NCBI RefSeq assembly: GCF_030013205.1
Contig: NZ_CP122648.1
Source: Escherichia coli
Lineage (GTDB): Bacteria; Pseudomonadota; Gammaproteobacteria; Enterobacterales; Enterobacteriaceae
Reading direction: 5' to 3' (one strand)
DNA length: 64,000 nucleotides
The translations under genes were made by a program, and so were the position numbers. Under the pieces are notes generated by a model. That model worked only from the letters and a program-made list of their open reading frames with translations, did no database searches and was not told where the DNA came from. This document shows, piece by piece, positions 24,878-39,753 of the stretch. The first letter of the stretch is position 1; each line of letters opens with the position of its first letter.

Positions 24878-27800
24878 TTATTTCCGTACCCGATGTCGGT
24901 GTAGCCACATCAGCTTATACGCCGCCGGGATAATAAACAGCGACAGCAAAGGCGCGGTGATCATGCCGCCAATCATCGGCGCGGCAATCCGGCTCATCAC
25001 CTCTGATCCTGCCCCCGTTCCCCACAGAATCGGCAGCAGACCAGCGATAATCACCGCCACCGTCATCGCTTTCGGGCGCACGCGCAGTACCGCGCCGTGA
25101 TACAACGCCTCATCCAGCTTCTGCTCGCTGAATGTTTGCGGATTATTCAACGACGGCTCGGCCTCTATGGCGTGACGTAAATACATCAGCATCACCACGC
25201 CAAATTCGGCGGCAACCCCGGCAAGGGCAATAAAACCGGTGCCCGTCGCCACAGAAAGATGAAAGCCCATCCACCACAGCAACCAGATGCCGCCCACCAG
25301 CGCAAACGGTACGCTGCTGATAATCAGCAACGCTTCGCCCACCCGACGGAACGCCAGATACAACAGCACGAAGATGATCATCAACGTCATCGGCACCATG
25401 AGTTTCAGCTTATGGTTGGCGCGCTCCAGTAGCTCGAACTGCCCGGAGAATGCCACGCTGGTGCCCGGTTTTAACTGCACTTTTTCGGCAATCGCTTTTT
25501 GCAGATCGTGAACCACCGACACCATGTCACGATCGCGGGCATCGATATAAATCCAGCTCGTCGGGCGCGCATTCTCGGTTTTCAGCATCGACGGTCCGGT
25601 AGAGACTTTAACGTCGGCCACGTCTGCTAGGGTGATTTGCTGCTTCATCGGCGTCAGGATCGGCAACTGGCGCAGCGCCTGCGGACTATCGCGCCAGCTT
25701 TGCGGATAACGCAGATTAATTGGATAACGGGCAATCCCTTCCACCGTTTCGCCAACCATCGCCCCGCCCACCGCAGAAGTCACAAACAATTGCACATCCG
25801 CCACCGTCATACCGTAACGCGCGGCTTTTTCACGGTTAATCTCAACGTTGATATAGCGCCCACCTTCCAGACGCTCAGCAAGCGCAGAAGCCACGCCTGG
25901 CACCGTTCGCGCCACTTCTTCAATTTGCTCCGCCATCGCGTCGATATCCGCCAGCACAGTGCCGGAAACTTTAATGCCGATGGGGCTTTTAATGCCGGTT
26001 GAGAGCATATCGATACGGTTACGAATTGGCGGCACCCACAGATTCGCCAGCCCCGGCAGACGCACGGTGTTATCCAGTTCCTCAATGATTTTGTCCATCG
26101 TCATGCCTGGCCGCCACTGATCCTGCGGCTTAAGCTGGATGGTCGTTTCTACCATCTCCAGCGGAGCAGAATCGGTGGCGGTTTCCGCTTTCCCGGTTTT
26201 GCCAAATACCCGCGCCACTTCAGGTACGCTCATAATCAGCTTGTCGGTTTTTTGCAGCATACTCGCCGCCTCTGCTGCGGAAATCCCCGGCAGCGTCGAT
26301 GGCATATACAACAAGTCGCCTTCATTGATCTGCGGTAAAAATTCCCCGCCAACTTTATTGAGCGGCCAGAGAACCGTCAGCACCGAAAGCGCCGCCACCA
26401 GCAGCGTGGTTTTCGGCCAGTGCAGTACTTTCAGCAACAGCGGATGATAAACACGAATCAAAAAGCGATTGAGCGGGTTACTGCTTTCCGGCGGAATTTT
26501 GCCACGGATCCAGTAACCCATCAGGATAGGGATCACTACGATCGCCAGCAGCGCCGCACCCGCCATCGCATACGTTTTGGTGAACGCCAGCGGGCCAAAC
26601 AGACGCCCTTCCTGCCCTTCCAGGGTGAAGATCGGGATAAACGACAACGTGATAATCAGCAGACTGATAAACAGCGCCGGCCCCACTTCAACAGATGCAT
26701 CGGTGATCACCTGCCAGCGCGTTTTATTATCCAGCGTGGCGTCAGGATGCTGGTGCTGCCACTCTTCCAGCCGTTTATGTGCATTCTCGATCATGACGAT
26801 AGCGGCATCGACCATCGCCCCGACGGCAATCGCAATACCGCCCAGCGACATAATATTGGCGTTCAGTCCCTGAAAGTGCATGACAATAAAAGCAATACAC
26901 AACCCCAGCGGCAACGAAATAATCGCCACCAGCGCCGAGCGCACATGCCAGAGAAACAGCGCACAGACTACCGCCACCACAATAAACTCTTCCAGCAACT
27001 TGCCGCTGAGGTTGTCGATGGCGCGGTCAATGAGCTGGCTGCGATCGTATGTTGTAACTATCTCCACGCCTTCCGGCAGACTGCTTTTCAGCGTTTCCAG
27101 TTTGTCTTTCACGGCGGCGATCACTTCTCGGGCGTTTTTGCCGGAGCGCAGGATCACCACCCCGCCCGCCACTTCGCCTTCGCCGTTCAGTTCGGCAATG
27201 CCCCGGCGCATCTCCGGGCCAATCTGGACCTTCGCAACATCGCGCAGATAAACGGGCACGCCATTTTCACTGGCTTTTAAAACGATGTGATTAAAGTCGT
27301 CGAGCGTTTGCAGATAGCCGCTGGCGCGCACCATATATTCCGCTTCCGCCAGTTCGATCGACGAACCGCCCGCTTCCTGGTTTGAAGCATCCAGCGCGCT
27401 TTTTACTTCGGCGAGACTGATGCCATATTGCGCCAGGCGCTGGGGATCGATAACCACCTGATACTCTTTCACCACACCGCCCACCGACGCCACTTCCGCA
27501 ACGTCAGGGATGGTTTTTAGCTCATATTTGAGAAACCAGTCCTGCAATGAGCGTAAATCGGCCAGATCGTGCTTACCGCTGCGATCCACCAGTGCATATT
27601 CATAGATCCAGCCAACACCCGTGGCATCTGGCCCCAGCTCAGCGCTGACTCCCGCAGGCAGCTTACCCTGTACCTGGTTGAGGTACTCCAGCACCCGCGA
27701 GCGCGCCCAGTATGGATCGGTGCCATCTTCGAAAATGACATACACATAAGAGTCGCCAAACTGCGAGAAACCGCGCACAGTCTTCGCGCCAGGCACCGAC

Positions 27801-28021
27801 AACATAGTGGTGGTTAGCGGATAAGTCACCTGATTTTCAACGATTTGCGGTGCCTGACCGGGATAGCTGGTTTTAATAATCACCTGCACATCAGAGAGAT
27901 CCGGCAGTGCATCCACTGGCGTGTTAATGATGGTCCAGGTGCCCCAGATACTCAGAAACAACGCGCCCATCAGCACCAGAAAACGGTTCGCCACCGAGCG
28001 ACGAATAATCCATTCAATCAT
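24878..28021 (-). CDS. cusA: Cu(I)/Ag(I) efflux RND pump CusA
   Basis: 1047-aa [32 protein letters not shown]…. Confidence 0.96.
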
Positions 28022-28032
28022 TGGTTATTCCC

Positions 28033-29256
28033 TCAATGCGCATGGGTAGCACTTTCAGAGCGCATCCGCTCCAGTGCGCCAGAAATATTGGCTTCGGAAT
28101 CAATCAGGAACAGGCCGCTGGAAACCACCTTTTCACCTTCCGCCAGACCAGAGCGTAATGCGGTGACGCCTTGCGATGCCTGGAAAACGGCAACGCGTTT
28201 CGGTACAAAGCGCCCGTCGGCATCAACGGTAATCACCCGCTGTTCGCTGCCGGTATCAATCAGCGCTTGTGACGGAATGAGCAGCATCGGTTCGCTGGCG
28301 GTGTTGAGTTGCAACCAGGCGTTCATTCCCGGCTTTAGCGCCTCGTCGGTGTTGTCGACTTCCAGGCGCAGCTGCAGCGTGCGGGTTGCGGCATCCACGC
28401 CGGGTAGCAGCGTCCATTTGCGGATGGTGAGTGTTTTATCAGGTCGTGCCGGAACGGTGAGCGTAAACTGCGAGGCATCTTTCACCAGCCAGGCGATGGA
28501 CTCCGGGATCGCGGCAGTGATCCACACCGGATCCATACCCTGAATTTTCGCGACCACGTTATCTTTGGCGATATTCATTCCCGCGCGCAGATCAAACGCG
28601 GTGATCACGCCATCAATGGGCGCTTTGAGCGTAAAGCGAGTCTGGATTTTTTGCGTGGCGATCAGGCGGCGAATATCCGCCTCCGGCATTCCCGCCAGTC
28701 TCAGCCGCTCAAGAATGCCTTCAGTCTGGGTCGCCGTACCGCCAGTTTCGCGCAGCAGTAAATACTCACTCTGCGCTTCCACCCAGTCGGGAATGGTCAG
28801 GTCGAGAAGCGGCGCGCCCTTTTGTACTTTATCGCCCACGGTAAGCGGATACACCTTGTCGATAAACCCGGCGGCGCGGGCCTGCACAATGGCATACTGA
28901 TACTCGTTGTAACTGACATTCGCCGGGAAACTTTGGGCAAAAGTCAGCGGCCCGCGCGTGACGGTCGCCGTTTTCACCCCCAGATTCTGCGTCTGAGTCG
29001 GGTCAATGCGCACACCAGACGCAGAACTCTCTTCATCGGCATATTTCGGCACCAGATCCATATCCATAAACGGCGATTTACCTGGTTTATCGAACCGCGT
29101 ATTGGGATACATCGGGTCGTACCAGAATAAGATTTTACGTTCTGCGGTCGACGTTTTTTCTGCGGGCGGTTCCGCCTTTGCAAACCAGGTAAAACCTGCC
29201 GCAGAAATAATACCGCCCGCGATCATGCTGCCGATAATAAGCGCGATTTTTTTCAT
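28033..29256 (-). CDS. cusB: Cu(I)/Ag(I) efflux membrane fusion protein CusB
   Basis: 407-aa ORF MKKIALIIGSMIAGGIISAAGFTWF…. Confidence 0.95.
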   Translation of the reverse strand: MKKIALIIGSMIAGGIISAAGFTWFAKAEPPAEKTSTAERKILFWYDPMYPNTRFDKPGKSPFMDMDLVPKYADEESSASGVRIDPTQTQNLGVKTATVTRGPLTFAQSFPANVSYNEYQYAIVQARAAGFIDKVYPLTVGDKVQKGAPLLDLTIPDWVEAQSEYLLLRETGGTATQTEGILERLRLAGMPEADIRRLIATQKIQTRFTLKAPIDGVITAFDLRAGMNIAKDNVVAKIQGMDPVWITAAIPESIAWLVKDASQFTLTVPARPDKTLTIRKWTLLPGVDAATRTLQLRLEVDNTDEALKPGMNAWLQLNTASEPMLLIPSQALIDTGSEQRVITVDADGRFVPKRVAVFQASQGVTALRSGLAEGEKVVSSGLFLIDSEANISGALERMRSESATHAH

Positions 29257-29271
29257 CTCATTAAACCTGGG

Positions 29272-29604
29272 TTACTGGCTGACTTTAATATCCTGTAATA
29301 AAGAAAGGTTGCCCTGCTGGACAAAATTAAACGCCACTTTGTCGCCGGTTTTTATTTCGCCCATCTTCGTCTGCGGGGTGATGGTAAAGCGCATGGTCAT
29401 CTCCGGCCAGTTCACGGCAGCAATCGGATCGTGATGGATAGTGATTTTTTTGCTTTCCAGATCAATACCTTTTACCACCCCTGTGGCACTAATGACCTGC
29501 GGTTGTGCTTCGCTCATGGTTTCATGATGATGTTCGTTAGCCTGGGCATTAAAGCCAATAACGGTAAACAGACTGAACATTGCGACTTGCAGTGCTTTTT
29601 TCAT
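29272..29604 (-). CDS. cusF: periplasmic copper chaperone CusF
   Basis: 110-aa ORF with signal peptide and NEHHHETM / MTMRF region. Confidence 0.95.
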   Translation of the reverse strand: MKKALQVAMFSLFTVIGFNAQANEHHHETMSEAQPQVISATGVVKGIDLESKKITIHHDPIAAVNWPEMTMRFTITPQTKMGEIKTGDKVAFNFVQQGNLSLLQDIKVSQ

Positions 29605-29627: not shown

Positions 29628-31010
29628 TTATTGCTGCCAACCGCCACCAAGTGCGGTATATAAAGAAATTTCGTTAACCTGACGGGCATAATTCAGGTCA
29701 AGTAAAGTTTGTCGGGTTGCAAATAAAGAACGTTCGGCATCCAGCACTTCCAGATAACTGACTGCGCCGTGCTGATATAATGCCCGCGCCCGTTGCAAAG
29801 TAATTTGCAGCGATGCCAGATAACGCTGCTGGGCGCTAATTTGATCGTTCAGGCTTTGACGTAATGCCAGCGCATCTGCCACTTCTTTAAAGGCATTCTG
29901 GATTTTCTGTTCATAATTCACCACCGACTGCTGCTGGCGAATTTCGGCGATATCCAGATTGGCCTGGTTGCGTCCGGCATTAAAAATGGGGATCTCAATT
30001 TTGGGAATAAAATTCCACATCCCGCTGCTGGCGTTAAATAAGGACGACAGATCGCTGCTGGCGGTCGATATTCCGCTGGTCAGACTGATAGACGGGAAAA
30101 ATGCCGCGCGTGCAGCGCCAATATTGGCATTAGCCGCCATCAACGCGTGTTCAGCTTCCATAATATCCGGGCGCTGCAATAAGATTTGCGACGACAAGCC
30201 CGCCGGTAATTTAACGCTTTGCAGGCTGTCGCTGTTTACTGTTTGCGCTTGCGGCAGCTTGCCGTAGCTTCCCAGCAACAGTTGCAATGCATTATTCGCC
30301 TGCGCCAGTTCCCCCTGACGTTTAGCGATGTCGCTGCGGGTACTTTCTATCACCCCGCGAGCCTGTTCCAGCGCCAGAACATTGCTGCTACCGGTCAACA
30401 GTTGTTTTTCGACAAACGCATATGACTGCTGATAATTACGCAGCGTTTCTTCGGCTATTTGCAATTGCGCATACGCCAGTTGCTGATTGAAATAGCTTTG
30501 CGCGACATTAGAAACCAGCAGAATATGCACCGCGCGCTGGGCTTCCTCAGTGGCTAAATAATTTTGGCGCTCGGCTTCGCTCATGTTCTTTAAGCGACCG
30601 AAAAAATCGAGATCAAAGCTGGCGTTAAGGCCGGTCGAAAACTCCCGTGTCGTGGCGGTATTCCCTTTAAGATTACCGCTCCAGCTGCCGCTGCCCTCGC
30701 CATTGAGCTGTGGGTAGCGGTCGGCATCGGTCAGACGATATTGCGCCCGTGCCTCCTGCACTTTCAGCGTCGCCATGCGCAAATCCCGGTTATTCACCAG
30801 CGCCTCGCTAATCAGCGTCTTCACCTGATTATCAATAAAAAAGGTGCGCCAGCCCGCGTTCTGGTAGTTATCTGCTGCGTTAACCAGGCCGTTCTGGCTG
30901 AGTGAGAACTGCTTCGGTACGGGCATTGCCGGACGCTGATAATCCGGTGCCAATGAACAACCGGTTAGCGCAAGGGCCACACAAAATGGCAGAAGTTTAC
31001 AAGGAGACAT
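29628..31010 (-). CDS. cusC: Cu(I)/Ag(I) efflux outer membrane factor CusC (lipoprotein)
   Basis: ORF 29628..31016; start chosen at MSPCKLLPFCVALALTGCSLAPDYQRP (lipobox LTGC). Confidence 0.93.
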   Translation of the reverse strand: MSPCKLLPFCVALALTGCSLAPDYQRPAMPVPKQFSLSQNGLVNAADNYQNAGWRTFFIDNQVKTLISEALVNNRDLRMATLKVQEARAQYRLTDADRYPQLNGEGSGSWSGNLKGNTATTREFSTGLNASFDLDFFGRLKNMSEAERQNYLATEEAQRAVHILLVSNVAQSYFNQQLAYAQLQIAEETLRNYQQSYAFVEKQLLTGSSNVLALEQARGVIESTRSDIAKRQGELAQANNALQLLLGSYGKLPQAQTVNSDSLQSVKLPAGLSSQILLQRPDIMEAEHALMAANANIGAARAAFFPSISLTSGISTASSDLSSLFNASSGMWNFIPKIEIPIFNAGRNQANLDIAEIRQQQSVVNYEQKIQNAFKEVADALALRQSLNDQISAQQRYLASLQITLQRARALYQHGAVSYLEVLDAERSLFATRQTLLDLNYARQVNEISLYTALGGGWQQ

Positions 31011-31079
31011 AGGCACATAATTTCTGGTGATTTTATGCCGCCAACTTTACCCGCCAGGCTCTGATTTTCCGGTGACAGG

Positions 31080-31101
31080 AAAATGACAAAATTGTCATTT
31101 T
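31080..31101. promoter_or_regulatory. CusR box (copper box) in the divergent cusC / cusR promoter region
   Basis: Perfect palindrome aaaatgacaaaattgtcatttt between the divergent cus operons. Confidence 0.8.
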
Positions 31102-31166
31102 ACCAATAAGCGATTGCCATCTGATCCCGCTACTCTAGAATTGCCCGGGCAACATGTGGAGGAAAT

Positions 31167-31850
31167 ATGAAACTGTTGATTGTCGAAGATGAAAAGAAAA
31201 CCGGAGAATACTTGACCAAAGGGTTAACCGAAGCCGGTTTTGTGGTCGATTTGGCCGACAACGGGCTGAATGGCTACCATCTGGCGATGACCGGAGATTA
31301 TGATCTGATAATCCTCGATATTATGCTGCCGGACGTGAACGGCTGGGATATCGTGCGCATGTTGCGTTCCGCCAATAAAGGGATGCCGATTCTGTTGCTT
31401 ACCGCGCTTGGTACCATTGAACATCGCGTCAAGGGGCTGGAGTTGGGGGCGGATGACTATCTGGTGAAGCCGTTCGCTTTTGCTGAACTGCTGGCGCGGG
31501 TGCGCACTCTACTGCGGCGCGGGGCGGCGGTAATTATCGAAAGTCAGTTTCAGGTTGCCGATCTGATGGTCGATCTCGTCAGCCGCAAAGTCACCCGCAG
31601 CGGCACGCGCATCACTCTGACCAGTAAAGAATTTACTCTGCTGGAGTTTTTCCTCCGCCATCAAGGCGAAGTGCTGCCCCGCTCGCTTATCGCCTCGCAG
31701 GTGTGGGACATGAATTTCGACAGCGATACCAACGCCATTGATGTGGCAGTGAAGCGGCTGCGCGGCAAAATCGACAACGACTTTGAGCCGAAGCTGATTC
31801 AAACCGTGCGCGGCGTGGGTTACATGCTTGAGGTGCCGGATGGTCAGTAA
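31167..31850 (+). CDS. cusR: copper-responsive response regulator CusR (OmpR family)
   Basis: 227-aa [36 protein letters not shown]…. Confidence 0.96.
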
Positions 31851-33288
31851 GCCATTTCAGCGCCCGTTTTCGCTGGCAACCCGCCTGACCTTTTTTATCA
31901 GCCTGGCCACCATCGCGGCGTTTTTCGCCTTTGCCTGGATCATGATTCACTCGGTAAAAGTGCATTTTGCTGAGCAGGATATTAATGATTTAAAAGAGAT
32001 TAGCGCCACACTCAAGCGCGTTCTTAATCATCCCGAAGAGACACAAGCCCGACGCTTAATGACGCTGGAAGATATCGTCAGTGGTTATTCCAATGTGTTG
32101 ATTTCCCTGGCAGATAGCCAGGGTAAAACGGTGTATCACTCCCCCGGTGCGCCGGATATCCGCGAGTTTACGCGTGACGCCATACCCGATAAAGACACGC
32201 GGGGCGGCGAGGTGTATCTCCTTTCCGGCCCGACGATTATGATGCCGGGCCACGGTCACGGGCATATGGAACACAGCAACTGGCGGATGATTAACTTGCC
32301 GGTTGGCCCGTTGGTGGACGGCAAACCGATTTATACGCTCTACATCGCGCTTTCGATCGATTTTCATCTTCATTACATAAATGATTTGATGAATAAACTT
32401 ATTATGACCGCATCGATCATCAGCATCCTGATCGTCTTTATCGTGCTGTTGGCGGTACATAAAGGTCACGCACCGATCCGCAGCGTCAGCCGTCAAATCC
32501 AGAACATTACCTCGAAAGATCTCGACGTTCGCCTTGACCCGCAGACCGTGCCGATTGAGCTGGAACAGCTGGTACTGTCGTTCAACCATATGATCGAGCG
32601 TATTGAGGATGTCTTTACTCGCCAGTCCAATTTCTCAGCGGATATCGCTCACGAAATTCGTACACCAATTACGAATCTCATAACGCAAACCGAAATCGCC
32701 CTCAGCCAGTCACGCAGCCAGAAGGAGCTGGAAGATGTGCTCTACTCTAATCTCGAAGAGCTGACGCGAATGGCGAAAATGGTCAGCGATATGCTGTTTC
32801 TCGCCCAGGCCGATAACAACCAGCTAATCCCCGAAAAGAAAATGCTCAACCTGGCGGATGAAATCGGCAAAGTGTTCGATTTTTTCGAGGCGCTAGCGGA
32901 AGATCGCGGCGTGGAACTGCGGTTTGTTGGTGACGAGTGTCAGGTTGCGGGCGATCCGCTGATGCTGCGTCGGGCGTTAAGCAACCTGCTTTCGAACGCC
33001 CTGCGTTATACGCCGCCCGGAGAGGCGATTGTAGTGCGCTGCCAGACGGTCGATCACCAGGTGCAAGTTTCCGTCGAAAACCCCGGTACGCCCATTGCGC
33101 CCGAGCACTTACCGCGATTGTTTGACCGTTTCTACCGCGTTGACCCCTCCCGCCAGCGAAAAGGCGAAGGTAGCGGTATTGGGCTGGCGATAGTGAAATC
33201 GATTGTTGTCGCGCATAAAGGCACGGTTGCAGTAACGTCAGATGCTCGGGGGACAAGGTTTGTGATTATGCTGCCGGAGAGAGAGTGA
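31840..33288 (+). CDS. cusS: copper-sensing histidine kinase CusS
   Basis: Start chosen at [19 protein letters not shown] inside ORF 31828..33288, overlapping the cusR stop; HisKA/HATPase motifs. Confidence 0.93.
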
Positions 33289-34038: not shown

Positions 34039-35925
34039 ATGTCAACCGGATTACGTTTCACACTGGAAGTGGACGGCCTGCCGCCGGATGCTTTTGCGGT
34101 GGTTTCCTTTCATCTGAACCAGTCACTCTCTTCGCTCTTTTCCCTCGATCTCTCCCTGGTCAGCCAGCAGTTTCTCTCCCTTGAATTTGCGCAGGTGCTG
34201 GACAAAATGGCCTACCTGACGATATGGCAGGGCGATGAAGTACAGCGCCGGGTGAAAGGCGTGGTGACCTGGTTTGAACTCGGGGAGAACGACAAAAACC
34301 AGATGCTGTACAGCATGAAGGTGCACCCGCCGCTGTGGCGTGCCGGTCTGCGCCAGAACTTCCGTATCTTCCAGAACGAGGACATCAAAAGCATCCTCGG
34401 CACGATGTTGCAGGAAAACGGGGTGACCGAATGGAGTCCGCTGTTCAGCGAGCCGCATCCTTCCCGTGAGTTTTGTGTCCAGTACGGTGAGACTGATTAC
34501 GATTTCCTGTGCCGGATGGCGGCGGAGGAAGGCATCTTCTTTTATGAGGAGCATGCTTACAAAAGTACCGACCAGAGCCTGGTGCTGTGCGACACAGTCC
34601 GCCATCTGCCCGAATCTTTTGAAATCCCATGGAACCCGAACACCCGTACCGAGGTGAGCACCCTCTGCATCAGCCAGTTCCGCTACAGCGCACAAATCCG
34701 CCCTTCTTCCGTGGTGACCAAAGACTACACCTTTAAACGCCCCGGCTGGGCCGGACGTTTTGAACAGGAAGGCCAGCACCAGGACTACCAGCGCACGCAG
34801 TATGAAGTGTATGACTACCCCGGACGTTTCAAGGGTGCCCACGGGCAGAACTTTGCCCGCTGGCAGATGGACGGCTGGCGAAACAATGCAGAAACCGCGC
34901 GGGGAATGAGTCGTTCGCCGGAGATATGGCCGGGACGACGAATTGTGCTGACGGGGCATCCGCAGGCGAACCTGAACCGGGAATGGCAGGTGGTGGCAAG
35001 TGAACTGCACGGCGAACAGCCACAGGCGGTGCCAGGACGGCAGGGAGCGGGGACGGCGCTGGAGAACCATTTTGCGGTGATCCCGGCAGACAGAACATGG
35101 CGACCACAGCCGTTGCTGAAACCGCTGGTCGACGGCCCGCAGAGCGCTGTCGTGACAGGACCGGCAGGCGAGGAAATCTTCTGCGACGAACATGGTCGCG
35201 TGCGGGTGAAGTTCAACTGGGACCGTTATAACCCGGCAGACCAAGACAGTTCGTGCTGGATCCGTGTGGCACAGGCGTGGGCAGGCACCGGTTTTGGCCA
35301 CCTGGCGATACCACGTGTGGGTCAGGAAGTCATTGTGGACTTCCTCAACGGCGATCCGGACCAGCCGATCATTATGGGGCGCACCTACCACCAGGAAAAC
35401 CGCCCCCCCGGCAGCCTGCCGGGAACAAAGACGCAGATGACCATCCGCTCCAAAACGTACATGGGCAGCGGATTTAATGAGCTGAAGTTTGATGATGCGA
35501 CAGGGAGAGAACAGGTCTACATCCACGCGCAGAAGAACATGGATACCGAAGTGCTCAACGACCGTACCACCACCGTAAAACACGATCACCGCGAAACCGT
35601 AAAAAATGACCAGACGGTCACGATCCAGGAAGGTAACCGCCTTCTTACGGTGGAAAAAGGCCACAAGATCACCGGAGTACTGAAAGGGTCTTTATCTGAG
35701 GATGTCTTTCAGGACAGAGGCACGATTGCCGGTTCGGTGCATGTTGACGCTGTAAACAATGGTGGCGAAGGCGACGGTATACAGGCTTATACGGCGATTA
35801 AGGAAATTTTGCTGGCCGTGGAGGAAAGCAAAATTGCGCTGACGCCGGATGGCATTCAGCTACAGGTCGGGGAATCGACGGTACCGGATCACAGGTGTCA
35901 GTCACACCGACGGGATCCGGCTTAA
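34039..35925 (+). CDS. vgrG: VgrG (Rhs-element Vgr protein / T6SS spike), 3' end replaced out of frame at a deletion junction near 35880
   Basis: 628-aa ORF with gp27/gp5-like VgrG sequence (…GRVRVKFNWDRYNPADQDSSCWIRVAQAWAG…IALTPDGIQLQVGESTV) ending in an unrelated 15-aa tail PDHRCQSHRRDPA. Confidence 0.8.
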   Translation: MSTGLRFTLEVDGLPPDAFAVVSFHLNQSLSSLFSLDLSLVSQQFLSLEFAQVLDKMAYLTIWQGDEVQRRVKGVVTWFELGENDKNQMLYSMKVHPPLWRAGLRQNFRIFQNEDIKSILGTMLQENGVTEWSPLFSEPHPSREFCVQYGETDYDFLCRMAAEEGIFFYEEHAYKSTDQSLVLCDTVRHLPESFEIPWNPNTRTEVSTLCISQFRYSAQIRPSSVVTKDYTFKRPGWAGRFEQEGQHQDYQRTQYEVYDYPGRFKGAHGQNFARWQMDGWRNNAETARGMSRSPEIWPGRRIVLTGHPQANLNREWQVVASELHGEQPQAVPGRQGAGTALENHFAVIPADRTWRPQPLLKPLVDGPQSAVVTGPAGEEIFCDEHGRVRVKFNWDRYNPADQDSSCWIRVAQAWAGTGFGHLAIPRVGQEVIVDFLNGDPDQPIIMGRTYHQENRPPGSLPGTKTQMTIRSKTYMGSGFNELKFDDATGREQVYIHAQKNMDTEVLNDRTTTVKHDHRETVKNDQTVTIQEGNRLLTVEKGHKITGVLKGSLSEDVFQDRGTIAGSVHVDAVNNGGEGDGIQAYTAIKEILLAVEESKIALTPDGIQLQVGESTVPDHRCQSHRRDPA

Positions 35926-38900
35926 ACTGACGTACCACGCCAGCGGCTACCTGAAAGCCATTCACCGCACGGATAACGGCATACAGACGCTGGCGACCTA
36001 CGAACAGGATGCGCGGGGGCGGCTGACAGAAGCGGATGCGCGGCTGGACTACCACCTGTTTTATGAGTACGACGCTGCGGACCGGATCATCCGCTGGTCC
36101 GATAACGACCAGACGTGGAGCCGTTTCACCTACGATGAACAGGGCCGGTGCGTGAATGTCACCGGGGCGGAGGGCTATTACAACGCCACGCTGGACTATG
36201 GTGACGGCTGCACCACCGTGACGGACGGCAAGGGCATTCACCGTTATTACTATGATCCTGACGGCAATATTCTGCGGGAAGCAGCGCCGGACGGCAGCAC
36301 CACCATGTATGAATGGGATGAATTCCATCACCTGCTGGCCCGTCACTCCCCTGCCGGGCGGGTGGAGAAATTTGAATACAACGCCGCACACGGTCAGTTA
36401 AGCCGTTACACGGCGGCAGACGGCGCGGAGTGGCAGTACCGCTATGATGAGCGCGGCCTGCTCAGCAACATCACCGACCCTGCCGGGCAGACGTGGACAC
36501 AGCAGTGTGATGAACGCGGCCTGCCGGTAAGTCTGGTGTCGCCACAGGGCGAAGAGACCCGGCTGGCATACACCGCTCAGGGGCTGCTGTCGGGAATATT
36601 CCGCCAGGATGAACGGCGTCTGGGCATAGAGTACGACCACCACAACCGGCCGGAAACACTCACCGACGTGATGGGCCGTGAACACCACACCGAATACAGC
36701 GGTCACGACCTGCCGGTGAAGATGCGCGGCCCCGGCGGTCAGTCAGTGCGGTTACAGTGGCAGCAGCACCATAAACTGAGCGGCATTGAACGTGCTGGAA
36801 CCGGCGCGGAAGGATTCCGCTACGACCGCCACGGCAACCTGCTGGCCTGGACGGACGGCAACGGCGTTGTCTGGACAATGGAATACGGCCCGTTTGATTT
36901 GCCGGTGGCGCGAACGGACGGTGAAGGCCACCGCTGGCAGTACCGCTACGATAAAGACACGCTGCAACTGACAGAAGTCATTAACCCGCAGGGTGAGTCA
37001 TATCTTTATGTTCTGGATAACTGCGGCCGGGTGACGGAAGAGCATGACTGGGGCGGCGTGGTCTGGCGTTACCGCTATGACGCCGATGGCCTGTGTACCG
37101 CCAGGGTCAACGGCCTGGAGGAAACCATCCTCTACAGCCGGGACGCCGCAGGCCGCCTGGCAGAAGTCATCACGCCGGAAGGCAAAACGCAGTATGCGTA
37201 TGACAAATCCGGCAGGCTTACGGGTATCTTCAGCCCGGACGGCACATCACAGCGCACCGGCTATGACGAACGCGGGCGGGTGAATGTCACCACTCAGGGC
37301 CGACGGGCCATTGAATACCACCACCCCGATGAACACACCGTCATCCGCTGTATCCTGCCACCGGAAGATGAACGCGACAGACACCCCGGTGAATCCCTGC
37401 TGAAAACCACGTACCGCTACAACGCCGCCGGAGAACTGACGGAGGTTATCCTGCCGGGGGATGAGACGCTGACGTTCAGCCGTGATGAGGCAGGACGTGA
37501 AGTGCTCCGGCACAGTAACCGGGGTTTTGCCTGTGAACAGGGCTGGAATGCAGCCGGCCAGTCTGTCAGCCAGCGCGCCGGATTTTTCCCGGAAGAAGCC
37601 ACATGGGGCGGGCTGGTTCCGTCACTGGCGCGGGAATACCGTTATGACAGCGCGGGCAATGTGTCGGCTGTCACCAGCCGGGAAGATTACGGACGGGAAA
37701 CACGGCGGGAATACCGGCTGGACCGGAACGGCCAGGTCACGGCGGTGACAGCCTCAGGCACCGGGCTGGGCTATGGCGAAGGCGATGAGTCCTATGGCTA
37801 TGACAGCTGCGGCTACCTGAAGGCGCAGTCTGCGGGCTGGCACCGGATAAGTGAAGAGACTGACCAGTATGCCGGAGGCCACCGGCTGAAACAGGCCGGA
37901 AACACGCAGTATGACTATGACGCCGCAGGCCGGATGGTCAGCCGCACCAGACACCGTGACGGCTATCGCCCGGAAACAGAGCGGTTCCGGTGGGACAGCC
38001 GTGACCAGCTGACCGGGTATTGCAGCGCACAGGGTGAGCAGTGGGAATACCGCCACGACGCCAGCGGCAGACGAACAGAGAAACGCTGCGACCGGAAGAA
38101 AATCCGCTTCACGTATCTGTGGGACGGCGACAGTATTGCGGAAATCCGGGAATACCGCGATGATAAACTGTACAGCGTACGGCACCTGGTGTTTAACGGC
38201 TTTGAGCTGATAAGCCAGCAGTTCAGCCGGGTACGGCAGGCGCATCCGTCGGTGGCCCCGCAGTGGGTGACACGGACGAATCATGCGGTGAGCGACCTGA
38301 CGGGCCGTCCGCTGATGCTCTTTAACAGTGAAGGTAAAACCGTCTGGCGACCGGGACAGACCAGCCTGTGGGGGCTGGCACTCAGCCTGCCCGCAGACAC
38401 CGGCTACCCGGACCCGCGCGGGGAACTGGACCCGGAAGCCGACCCCGGCCTGCTGTATGCGGGACAGTGGCAGGATGCAGAATCCGGGCTGTGCTATAAC
38501 CGGTTCCGGTATTACGAGCCGGAAACCGGGATGTACCTGGTGAGTGATCCGCTGGGGTTGCTGGGGGGTGAGCAGACTTACCGGTATGTGCCAAATCCGT
38601 GTGGGTGGGTTGATCCGCTGGGATTGGCTGCAAGTTCTAAAATCAGCAGTTTGATGGACTATATTGGCGATGGTCGTCGTGTTAGTGGGCATACGGGTTT
38701 CCTGGATGGGGTTCGTTTATCACGTAGTCAAATAAACAATATTGCTAAAGAAATGGAGAAGCTAGGAATTAAAGTAATAAGGAAAGCAGATAAATATTTG
38801 CCACCAAATGCTAGGGCAGCTTTTGATTATGGCCTTCGCAATATTTATCTTAGGAAAAATGCCACCTTATATGAGGTGTATCATGAAGTGATTCATGCTA

Positions 38901-39079
38901 AGCAATTTGCGAAAATTGGACGAGAAGCATACGAAGCACTAGGACGTTTATCTAGGGAGGAACACGTTCTAAATGAAATATTAAAAAGTAAAAATTTATT
39001 CAATGAAGCGGAAATAGCTCATGCCATAAAATATGTTGAGGGATTGAGAGAAAAATTCATGATGGGACTAATAAATTGA
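35849..39079 (+). CDS. Rhs protein remnant: YD-repeat core (5'-truncated, no PAAR/N-terminal region) plus a 150-aa variable C-terminal toxin domain
   Basis: 1076-aa ORF rich in YD repeats, core-end motif YVPNPCGWVDPLGL at about 38585-38626, then a low-GC C-terminal tail containing HEVIH; the only ATG is a fortuitous one inside vgrG-derived sequence. Confidence 0.8.
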   Translation: MAFSYRSGNRRYRITGVSHTDGIRLKLTYHASGYLKAIHRTDNGIQTLATYEQDARGRLTEADARLDYHLFYEYDAADRIIRWSDNDQTWSRFTYDEQGRCVNVTGAEGYYNATLDYGDGCTTVTDGKGIHRYYYDPDGNILREAAPDGSTTMYEWDEFHHLLARHSPAGRVEKFEYNAAHGQLSRYTAADGAEWQYRYDERGLLSNITDPAGQTWTQQCDERGLPVSLVSPQGEETRLAYTAQGLLSGIFRQDERRLGIEYDHHNRPETLTDVMGREHHTEYSGHDLPVKMRGPGGQSVRLQWQQHHKLSGIERAGTGAEGFRYDRHGNLLAWTDGNGVVWTMEYGPFDLPVARTDGEGHRWQYRYDKDTLQLTEVINPQGESYLYVLDNCGRVTEEHDWGGVVWRYRYDADGLCTARVNGLEETILYSRDAAGRLAEVITPEGKTQYAYDKSGRLTGIFSPDGTSQRTGYDERGRVNVTTQGRRAIEYHHPDEHTVIRCILPPEDERDRHPGESLLKTTYRYNAAGELTEVILPGDETLTFSRDEAGREVLRHSNRGFACEQGWNAAGQSVSQRAGFFPEEATWGGLVPSLAREYRYDSAGNVSAVTSREDYGRETRREYRLDRNGQVTAVTASGTGLGYGEGDESYGYDSCGYLKAQSAGWHRISEETDQYAGGHRLKQAGNTQYDYDAAGRMVSRTRHRDGYRPETERFRWDSRDQLTGYCSAQGEQWEYRHDASGRRTEKRCDRKKIRFTYLWDGDSIAEIREYRDDKLYSVRHLVFNGFELISQQFSRVRQAHPSVAPQWVTRTNHAVSDLTGRPLMLFNSEGKTVWRPGQTSLWGLALSLPADTGYPDPRGELDPEADPGLLYAGQWQDAESGLCYNRFRYYEPETGMYLVSDPLGLLGGEQTYRYVPNPCGWVDPLGLAASSKISSLMDYIGDGRRVSGHTGFLDGVRLSRSQINNIAKEMEKLGIKVIRKADKYLPPNARAAFDYGLRNIYLRKNATLYEVYHEVIHAKQFAKIGREAYEALGRLSREEHVLNEILKSKNLFNEAEIAHAIKYVEGLREKFMMGLIN

Positions 39080-39441: not shown

Positions 39442-39753
39442 ATGGAAATAGTGATATACATCACTATTTCCATCCTGATTTTAGCTATCGCATTAATAAA
39501 ACAGCGGATGTTAGCCAATATCGAAACCAGTAACCCGTATCACGCCCAGTACATCCTGCGCCGCCGCGATGATTACCTGGTGCTGTTCGACCGTGATGCC
39601 CTGAGCTGCCGCTTCTTTTATGACGCCTTTCCGGGAATGCGTCTGCGCCACCAGGTGACCGGCGATACCGACGATGACCGCCTGGCACACAGCCCCGCAG
39701 ACCGGATGTATACAGGGAAAGATCATCAGAAGTACACTTTTTGTACTAAATAA
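39442..39753 (+). CDS. hypothetical small protein, possibly a chimeric or orphan fragment
   Basis: 103-codon ORF: hydrophobic AT-rich N-terminus joined to a GC-rich 3' portion (39530-39720) that looks displaced from another gene. Confidence 0.3.
   Translation: MEIVIYITISILILAIALIKQRMLANIETSNPYHAQYILRRRDDYLVLFDRDALSCRFFYDAFPGMRLRHQVTGDTDDDRLAHSPADRMYTGKDHQKYTFCTK

What the first reader, a model, noticed from the sequence alone, without database searches (positions are those of the whole stretch)
31080..31101. Perfect 22-bp palindromic CusR box between the divergent cus operons
aaaatgacaaaattgtcatttt is a perfect inverted repeat centred between cusC and cusR, matching the copper box bound by CusR. 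It is a known feature, noted because it confirms the regulatory module is intact.
Basis: partly seen in the sequence, partly recalled or inferred. Interest (0 to 1): 0.15.

Follow-up and report, generated by a model that had tools for sequence, protein, structure and literature searches.

The report
Known CusR copper-response operator site
This is the already well-known DNA site where the E. coli copper-sensing regulator CusR binds between the copper/silver efflux genes and its own gene; it is intact and ordinary, though not quite the perfect palindrome it was reported to be.

Summary
The sequence AAAATGACAAAATTGTCATTTT is at window 31080-31101, in the 156-bp spacer between cusC (minus strand) and cusR (plus strand) of an E. 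coli chromosome. It is not a perfect 22-bp palindrome. It has two perfect 10-bp arms around a 2-bp centre (AA) that is not self-complementary. This matches the published CusR box AAAATGACAAnnTTGTCATTTT at all 20 specified positions. The 22 bp are identical to E. coli K-12, and the CusR protein is identical (227/227). All six cus genes are full length. Three refinements follow.

- **Shared site:** published work shows the paralogous peroxide regulator HprR binds the same site.
- **Conserved core:** the core is a 6-4-6 repeat, ATGACA-N4-TGTCAT, at 31083-31098. The central 4 bp vary between strains and species.
- **Third half-site:** a TGAC(A) copy lies at 31073-31077, 11 bp outboard of the box on the cusC side. 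It is invariant in all 14 cus/sil-linked sites compared. It recurs at the paralogous hprR-hiuH site.

The third half-site mirrors the inverted-plus-direct repeat layout shown experimentally for the related regulator AgrR. Interest is low.

The parts
31080..31101 (.). CusR/HprR box, AAAATGACAA-AA-TTGTCATTTT. Two perfect 10-bp inverted arms around a non-self-complementary 2-bp centre.
   Evidence: It matches the published consensus 20/20 and is identical to K-12.
31083..31098 (.). 6-4-6 core, ATGACA-aaat-TGTCAT. These are the two inverted half-sites recognised by the winged-helix domains. The central 4 bp (31089-31092) vary among strains and species.
   Evidence: It fits the AgrR-box consensus ATKACANNNNTGTMAT (PMC7380067). 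The centre varies: aaat, atac, aagc, aaac, tttc, tttt.
31073..31077 (.). Third half-site, TGACA. It is a direct repeat of the left-arm half-site (31084-31088) at an 11-bp period, on the cusC side. On the minus strand it reads TGTCATTTTCCTGTCA.
   Evidence: TGAC is invariant in 14 of 14 cus/sil-linked sites. These are the only columns outside the box with 1.9 bits or more. It is always on the side away from cusR. The hprR-hiuH site has the same layout. A functional role is inferred.
31114..31141 (+). Putative cusRS promoter: -35 TTGCCA (31114-31119), 16-bp spacer, -10 TAGAAT (31136-31141). The inferred transcription start is near 31148, which puts the box centre near -57.5.
   Evidence: The consensus scan scored it 10/12. 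TTG and TAGAAT/TAAAAT are conserved in Klebsiella cus and in sil plasmids. The start site was not measured here.
31044..31049 (-). Putative cusCFBA promoter -10 element, TAAAGT on the minus strand. The -35 position reads CCGGAA, a poor match that fits an activator-dependent promoter. The inferred start is near 31037, which puts the box centre near -53.5 and the third half-site at -36 to -40.
   Evidence: Inferred from a position-conserved TAnnnT 30 bp from the box in the enterobacterial cus and sil spacers compared (eight of nine). The scanner did not find it, and no start-site data were available.
31167..31850 (+). cusR, an OmpR-family response regulator.
   Evidence: NF007346 scored 507.9 bits against a cut-off of 420. 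The protein is 227/227 identical to K-12 CusR and has D51.
31840..33288 (+). cusS, the Cu(I)/Ag(I) sensor histidine kinase.
   Evidence: NF007345 scored 984 bits. It shares 466 identical residues with K-12 CusS (480 aa), and the H271 motif is conserved.
29628..31010 (-). cusC, the outer-membrane channel and first gene of cusCFBA.
   Evidence: NF007347 scored 903 bits. Annotated as cusC in the matching RefSeq record.
24878..29604 (-). cusF (29272-29604), cusB (28033-29256) and cusA (24878-28021).
   Evidence: All three are above the NCBIfam cut-offs. The RefSeq annotation agrees.

Best explanation
This is the chromosomal E. coli CusR operator, the 'CusR box'. Periplasmic Cu(I) or Ag(I) activates the kinase CusS, which phosphorylates CusR at D51. 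A CusR dimer then binds the two inverted half-sites ATGACA and TGTCAT. From this one site it activates the two divergent promoters: cusCFBA (efflux pump) leftwards and cusRS (positive autoregulation) rightwards. The paralogous peroxide-responsive regulator HprR recognises the same sequence, so the site combines copper and oxidative signals. Those steps are shown in the literature for the identical K-12 sequence. I add one inference. The functional operator is probably a three-half-site unit, TGACA-N6-TGACA-N4-TGTCA. The extra direct repeat lies on the cusC side and abuts the -35 position of the cusC promoter. This would give the symmetric box a direction and favour the efflux operon. The confidence given (0.95) is for the CusR-box assignment; I rate the three-half-site addition at about 0.55.
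For: - **Sequence identity:** the site matches the published box 20/20 and the 22 bp are identical to K-12.
- **Gene context:** cusR, cusS, cusC, cusF, cusB and cusA all pass curated family cut-offs. CusR is identical to K-12.
- **Conservation within E. coli:** the spacer is present in 5333 of 5426 complete E. coli genomes. Only 6 of 5334 records have 3 or more differences in the 50 bp around the box.
- **Conservation across species:** the box is the best-conserved block in alignments with Klebsiella cus and with sil plasmids from Salmonella and Edwardsiella, at 67% mean column identity.
- **Published binding data for K-12:** there is a single ChIP-chip CusR peak in this spacer (bioRxiv 10.1101/2020.08.17.251918). 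gSELEX gives a single peak for unphosphorylated CusR and for HprR here (PMC8249747). Activation of both promoters is stated in PMC10920338 and PMC12589874. Copper-dependent cusC promoter activity appears in a mutational footprinting study (PMC12132413).
- **Third half-site:** TGAC at 31073-31076 is invariant in 14 of 14 sites and is the only highly conserved element outside the box. It is present in 10 of 10 genuine cus-linked hits against 4 of 110 other pattern matches. The hprR-hiuH site has the same arrangement.
- **Family precedent:** for the related regulator AgrR, mutating an in-phase direct repeat beside a 6-4-6 inverted repeat reduces activation (PMC7380067).
Against: - Nothing argues against the CusR-box assignment.
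- No binding or expression data exist for this particular strain.
- The transcription start sites, and so the -53.5 and -57.5 positions, are inferred from consensus and conservation. They were not measured, and the cusC -10 was not picked up by the promoter scan.
- The primary papers (Yamamoto & Ishihama 2005, Munson 2000, Urano 2015 and 2017) could not be read. I cannot say whether their footprints already cover the third half-site.
- Arm conservation among the genome-contig hits is imposed by the search pattern. Only the centre and the flanks are informative there.
- PMC8249747 describes unphosphorylated CusR as repressing cusCFBA. The site may therefore also act negatively without inducer.
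Confidence: 0.95

Rival explanations
1. The inverted repeat acts as a nucleic-acid structure, such as an RNA hairpin or terminator or a DNA cruciform, rather than as a protein-binding site.
For: As single-stranded DNA, 31070-31111 folds into a hairpin of -7.4 kcal/mol, with z = -3.4 against shuffles.
Against: The stem is almost all A-T, and no terminator-like site was found. There was no Rfam match at E up to 1. The site lies upstream of both inferred promoters, so it is probably not transcribed. The central loop bases vary while the half-site bases are fixed. A third, direct-repeat copy is also conserved, which a hairpin does not explain.
Confidence: 0.02
2. It is a chance AT-rich palindrome with no function.
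For: Repeats with perfect 10-bp arms occur by chance in about 30% of simulated 64-kb windows. This window has a second one at 39446-39469.
Against: It matches a 20-position published consensus exactly, with 0 matches in 100 shuffles. About 0.001 is expected in this spacer. It is conserved in more than 5300 E. coli genomes and across genera, while the neighbouring spacer sequence diverges.
Confidence: 0.005
3. The site serves mainly a regulator other than CusR. Candidates are HprR alone, or another OmpR/PhoB-family protein attracted by the direct TGTCA repeats at 11-bp spacing, which from memory resemble a Pho box.
For: HprR gives its strongest gSELEX peak at this spacer (PMC8249747). On the minus strand, TTGTCATTTTCCTGTCAC matches about 14 of 18 positions of the Pho-box consensus as I remember it; this was not tested.
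Against: CusR ChIP-chip and gSELEX both peak here. The site always travels with a cusR orthologue in the loci examined. Copper induction of cusC is reported as CusR/CusS-dependent. HprR is an additional user of the site, not a replacement.
Confidence: 0.03

Closest known systems
E. coli K-12 CusR box, AAAATGACAAnnTTGTCATTTT, in the cusC-cusR spacer (Yamamoto & Ishihama 2005, as quoted in PMC11195947)
   Same: The 22 bp are identical, as is the position (69 bp from cusC, 65 bp from cusR). The CusR protein is identical and the gene order is the same.
   Different: Only the two bases immediately flanking the box differ, plus three other spacer positions, giving 96.8% identity over 156 bp. Downstream of cusS this strain carries a type VI secretion vgrG/Rhs island instead of the K-12 gene annotated there as nrfB (known to me as nfrB).
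HprR/CusR box at hprR-hiuH, CATTACAAAATTGTAATG (PMC9302797)
   Same: It has the same 6-4-6 layout and the same central AAAT. It also has a third half-site 11 bp outboard, on the target-operon side away from the regulator gene.
   Different: The half-sites are ATTACA/TGTAAT instead of ATGACA/TGTCAT, and there are no AAA/TTT extensions. HprR is reported to bind this site with lower affinity than the cus spacer.
AgrR box of Cupriavidus metallidurans, ATKACANNNNTGTMAT, plus an in-phase direct repeat (PMC7380067)
   Same: The core 31083-31098 fits this consensus exactly. [quoted passage not shown]
   Different: It belongs to a different organism and regulator. For AgrR, the contribution of the direct repeat was shown by mutagenesis and footprinting. 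For the E. coli site it is inferred from conservation only.
silC-silR operator of sil plasmids, and the Klebsiella/Citrobacter cus operators
   Same: They have the same position between divergent efflux and regulator operons. The half-sites, the third TGAC and the cusR-side -10 TAGAAT are the same.
   Different: The outer arm differs (ATAATGACA in sil). The centre is aagc or aaac, so only 9-bp arms are symmetric. The E. coli version is the most extended palindrome of the set.

Membership tests
E. coli CusR box (CusR/HprR operator) | Sequence matches AAAATGACAAnnTTGTCATTTT | tested here: met
   It matches 20 of 20 specified positions, with nn = AA. The 22 bp are identical to K-12.
E. coli CusR box (CusR/HprR operator) | Located in the spacer between the divergent cusCFBA and cusRS operons | tested here: met
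   Gene identities come from NCBIfam and RefSeq annotation. The box is 69 bp from cusC and 65 bp from cusR.
E. coli CusR box (CusR/HprR operator) | An intact cognate regulator and kinase are encoded alongside | tested here: met
   CusR is 227/227 identical to K-12 and has D51. CusS is full length with a conserved H271 motif.
E. coli CusR box (CusR/HprR operator) | Positioned upstream of both promoters at activator distances | tested here: inconclusive
   A PcusR-like -35/-10 was found. The PcusC -10 was inferred only from conservation. No transcription start data were accessible.
E. coli CusR box (CusR/HprR operator) | Bound by phosphorylated CusR and required for copper or silver induction | not testable with these tools
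   This is reported for the identical K-12 sequence in the literature. It has not been measured for this strain.
Heavy-metal OmpR-family operator, 6-4-6 inverted repeat (cop box / AgrR box type) | Two hexamer half-sites, ATKACA and TGTMAT, separated by 4 variable bp | tested here: met
   31083-31098 reads ATGACAaaatTGTCAT. The centre varies among orthologous sites.
Heavy-metal OmpR-family operator, 6-4-6 inverted repeat (cop box / AgrR box type) | [quoted passage not shown] | tested here: met
   TGACA at 31073-31077 lies 11 bp from the left half-site. TGAC is invariant in 14 of 14 sites. The sequence is present, but its function has not been tested.
Intrinsic terminator or structured RNA | G+C-rich stem followed by a T run, or a match to an RNA family | tested here: not met
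   No terminator-like site was found and there was no Rfam match at E up to 1.

The most novel reading that the evidence does not exclude
The E. coli CusR operator may not be a simple palindrome. It may be a conserved three-half-site unit made of the inverted repeat plus an in-phase direct repeat, TGACA at 31073-31077. The extra half-site is always on the target-operon side and never on the regulator side. It would give a symmetric site a direction, for example by recruiting a further CusR protomer next to the -35 of PcusC, so that the efflux operon responds more strongly than cusRS. The same logic would apply at hprR-hiuH. I could not find this stated for E. coli CusR in the papers available to me, but it has been shown for the related regulator AgrR.
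Probability: 0.55. Interest if true: 0.3.

Novelty: already known. Interest (0 to 1): 0.12.

Why it matters
The finding shows that the copper/silver efflux regulon of this strain is wired as in K-12. This is useful for annotation and for predicting metal tolerance, but it teaches nothing new. The only point with some value beyond confirmation is the strictly conserved third half-site on the efflux-operon side. If it is functional, it would explain how one symmetric site drives two divergent promoters unequally. It would also be worth including when the PcusC promoter is cut out for copper biosensors.

Tried and rejected
- **Primary papers not held:** I tried Munson 2000 (PMC94710), Yamamoto & Ishihama 2005, and Urano 2015 and 2017. 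The published box sequence is therefore taken second-hand from PMC11195947. Mapped start sites and footprint limits could not be checked.
- **Biosensor and synthetic-biology papers:** PMC11522558 and PMC12589874 gave no promoter architecture.
- **pcoE promoter:** I looked for a third CusR target in the sil plasmid p14-120, but that plasmid has no pco cluster. This test was not done.
- **Genome-contig scan:** Most hits were unlinked matches in AT-rich genomes, and only 10 of 120 loci had a neighbouring cusR homologue. One of those 10 (L018) is a 35%-identity response regulator that overlaps the site, and I discounted it. E. coli itself was not among the rows returned.
- **Box variants across E. 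coli:** an exact count of variants across all 5333 E. coli genomes was not possible. Only identity bands and four sampled sequences were available.
- **Rejected readings:** the hairpin/terminator and RNA-family readings were tested and rejected.

Full report
**Observation.** The 22-mer AAAATGACAAAATTGTCATTTT is at window 31080-31101. It is not a perfect palindrome. Its reverse complement differs at two positions, because the innermost pair, 31090/31091, is A opposite A. The true structure is two perfect 10-bp arms (31080-31089 and 31092-31101) around a 2-bp centre that is not self-complementary. The symmetry stops at the box edges.

An inverted repeat of this quality somewhere in 64 kb is not remarkable. 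First-order Markov simulations gave a mean of 0.46 per window, 30% of windows had at least one, and this window has a second one at 39446-39469. Only about 0.001 is expected in this 156-bp spacer. No shuffle gave a match within three mismatches.

**Context.** The window is E. coli chromosome.

- The 156-bp spacer 31011-31166 occurs in 5333 of 5426 complete E. coli genomes. It is 100% identical to strain CFSAN018748 and 96.8% identical to K-12.
- To the left, on the minus strand, lie cusC (29628-31010), cusF, cusB and cusA. To the right, on the plus strand, lie cusR (31167-31850) and cusS (31840-33288). All six pass the curated NCBIfam cut-offs and agree with RefSeq annotation.
- CusR is 227/227 identical to K-12 CusR and has the phospho-acceptor D51. 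CusS is full length, with 466 residues identical to K-12 CusS (480 aa) and a conserved H271 motif.
- The box is 69 bp from the cusC ATG and 65 bp from the cusR ATG.

**Comparison with the published site.** PMC11195947 quotes the E. coli CusR site as the palindrome AAAATGACAAnnTTGTCATTTT, located between cusRS and cusC(F)BA. The window matches all 20 specified positions, and the unspecified nn corresponds to the non-palindromic AA. The 22 bp are identical in K-12; only the two bases directly flanking the box differ.

For the K-12 sequence the following are reported:

- A single genome-wide ChIP-chip CusR peak in this spacer (bioRxiv 10.1101/2020.08.17.251918).
- A single gSELEX peak for unphosphorylated CusR here, and more than 10 targets (nine high-level peaks) for phosphorylated CusR, still including this spacer (PMC8249747).
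- Activation of both divergent promoters by phospho-CusR (PMC10920338 and PMC12589874).
- Copper-dependent cusC promoter activity in a mutational footprinting screen (PMC12132413).

The same source reports that HprR gives its strongest gSELEX peak at this spacer and recognises the same sequence as CusR. The box is therefore a shared CusR/HprR operator.

**Conservation.** Alignment with the Klebsiella pneumoniae cus spacer and the silC-silR spacers of Salmonella and Edwardsiella plasmids has 67% mean column identity. The box is the best-conserved block in that alignment.

The arms are AAAATGACA / TGTCATTTT, or ATAATGACA in sil. The central four bases vary: aaat in E. coli, aagc in Klebsiella and sil, aaac in several Citrobacter, and tttc or tttt in more distant orthologues. 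Within E. coli, only 6 of 5334 records have three or more differences in the 50 bp around the box. One such strain, N96, differs within the box only in the central 4 bp (AAAATGACAATACTGTCATTTT).

The constrained unit is thus a 6-4-6 inverted repeat, ATGACA-N4-TGTCAT, at 31083-31098, with A/T-rich extensions. This fits exactly the consensus ATKACANNNNTGTMAT, determined by footprinting and interference for the related regulator AgrR (PMC7380067). One caveat applies. In the loci brought in by the genome-contig scan the arms were fixed by the search pattern, so only their centres and flanks are informative.

**Promoters (inferred).** On the plus strand, a sigma-70-like promoter scores 10/12: TTGCCA at 31114-31119, a 16-bp spacer, and TAGAAT at 31136-31141. 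Its TTG and TAGAAT/TAAAAT are conserved in Klebsiella and sil. It would start cusRS transcription near 31148, which puts the box centre at about -57.5.

On the minus strand, a TAnnnT hexamer (TAAAGT, 31049 to 31044) is conserved in position, 30 bp from the box, in eight of the nine enterobacterial cus and sil spacers compared. The corresponding -35 position reads CCGGAA, a poor match that is typical of an activator-dependent promoter. This would start cusCFBA near 31037, with the box centre at about -53.5. These positions agree with my recollection of database entries, but they were not measured here.

**A conserved third half-site.** Immediately left of the box, at 31073-31077, is TGACA. It lies exactly 11 bp from the left-arm TGACA at 31084-31088. 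Read towards cusC, the sequence is TGTCATTTTCCTGTCA, two direct TGTCA repeats one helical turn apart.

- Across 14 cus- or sil-linked sites, the only columns outside the box with 1.9 bits or more of information are 31073-31076 (TGAC, 14 of 14). The set includes orthologues with only 59-66% CusR identity (Billgrantia, a Moraxellaceae MAG with two sites, and a proteobacterial MAG), where the rest of the flank is unrelated.
- With each site oriented by its cusR gene, the extra copy is always on the side away from cusR.
- Among the scan hits, it is present in 10 of 10 genuine cus-linked sites against 4 of 110 other matches. One of those four lies 4 kb from a cusR homologue.
- The paralogous K-12 hprR-hiuH site, CATTACAAAATTGTAATG (PMC9302797), has the same feature. 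TGTAATgctgcTGTAAg repeats at an 11-bp period on the hiuH side, away from hprR.
- In the distant loci checked, the genes on that side are copper-resistance genes: an outer-membrane efflux protein in one, and a multicopper oxidase with copC and copD around the second Moraxellaceae site.

[quoted passage not shown] In the window, the third half-site would sit at about -36 to -40 of the inferred cusC promoter, abutting the -35 position. I infer that it extends CusR occupancy towards RNA polymerase at PcusC and gives a symmetric site a direction. I rate this step at about 0.55. I could not check whether the original E. coli footprints already cover it.

**Rivals.** A structural role as a hairpin, terminator or cruciform is unlikely.

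- The stem is nearly all A-T (-7.4 kcal/mol as single-stranded DNA).
- There is no terminator-like site and no Rfam match.
- The site lies upstream of both inferred promoters.
- The pattern of fixed half-sites, a variable centre and an extra direct repeat fits protein recognition, not base pairing.

Chance is excluded by the exact consensus match and the conservation. Use of the site by another regulator alone is contradicted by the CusR binding data and by the constant linkage to cusR. HprR is an additional user of the site.

**Verdict.** The feature is already known and ordinary, so interest is low (0.12). The small additions are the 10-2-10 correction (equivalently a 6-4-6 core), the shared use with HprR, and the strictly conserved third half-site on the efflux-operon side.

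Noticed in passing
window 31073-31077: A TGACA copy lies 11 bp outboard of the left arm of the box, on the cusC side. TGAC is invariant in 14 of 14 cus/sil-linked sites from several families, and the same layout occurs at hprR-hiuH in K-12. It is probably a third CusR half-site, by analogy with AgrR.
   Followed up: partly
window 31057-31063: A GGCTCTG / GACTCTG heptamer lies inside the inferred spacer of the cusC promoter, between the -35 and -10 positions. It is conserved in E. coli, Klebsiella, Citrobacter and sil plasmids although the surrounding bases diverge. Its role is unknown.
   Followed up: no
window 34039-39079: Downstream of cusS this strain carries a type VI secretion VgrG (Phage_GPD and Gp5 domains). 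This is followed by an Rhs-repeat protein with a C-terminal metallopeptidase toxin domain, Tox-MPTase4. K-12 has the gene annotated nrfB (known to me as nfrB) at this position. The closest strain, CFSAN018748, has the same kind of island.
   Followed up: partly
window 39446-39469: This is the only other inverted repeat in the window with perfect 10-bp arms: AAATAGTGAT-ATAC-ATCACTATTT. It lies just after the Rhs/toxin ORF. It was not examined.
   Followed up: no
L007 (E. coli O19:H7 strain 730V1), locus 959-2609: In this strain an IS903B element sits between the CusR box and cusC, at about window position 31057. cusC itself is truncated next to an ISKpn26 element. The box and cusRS are kept but are cut off from the efflux operon.
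   Followed up: partly
L060 3150-3171 and L096 7378-7399 (Billgrantia spp.): In these Halomonadaceae the box ends only about 24-28 bp before the cusR start codon. It cannot lie upstream of a cusR promoter as it does in E. coli. Autoregulation there must work differently, or cusR is transcribed from further upstream.
   Followed up: no
window 31016 versus 31010: The ORF finder starts cusC at a GTG at 31016, two codons upstream of the ATG at 31010 used in RefSeq. CusC here is 460 aa against 457 aa in K-12, with 455 aligned identical residues.
   Followed up: partly
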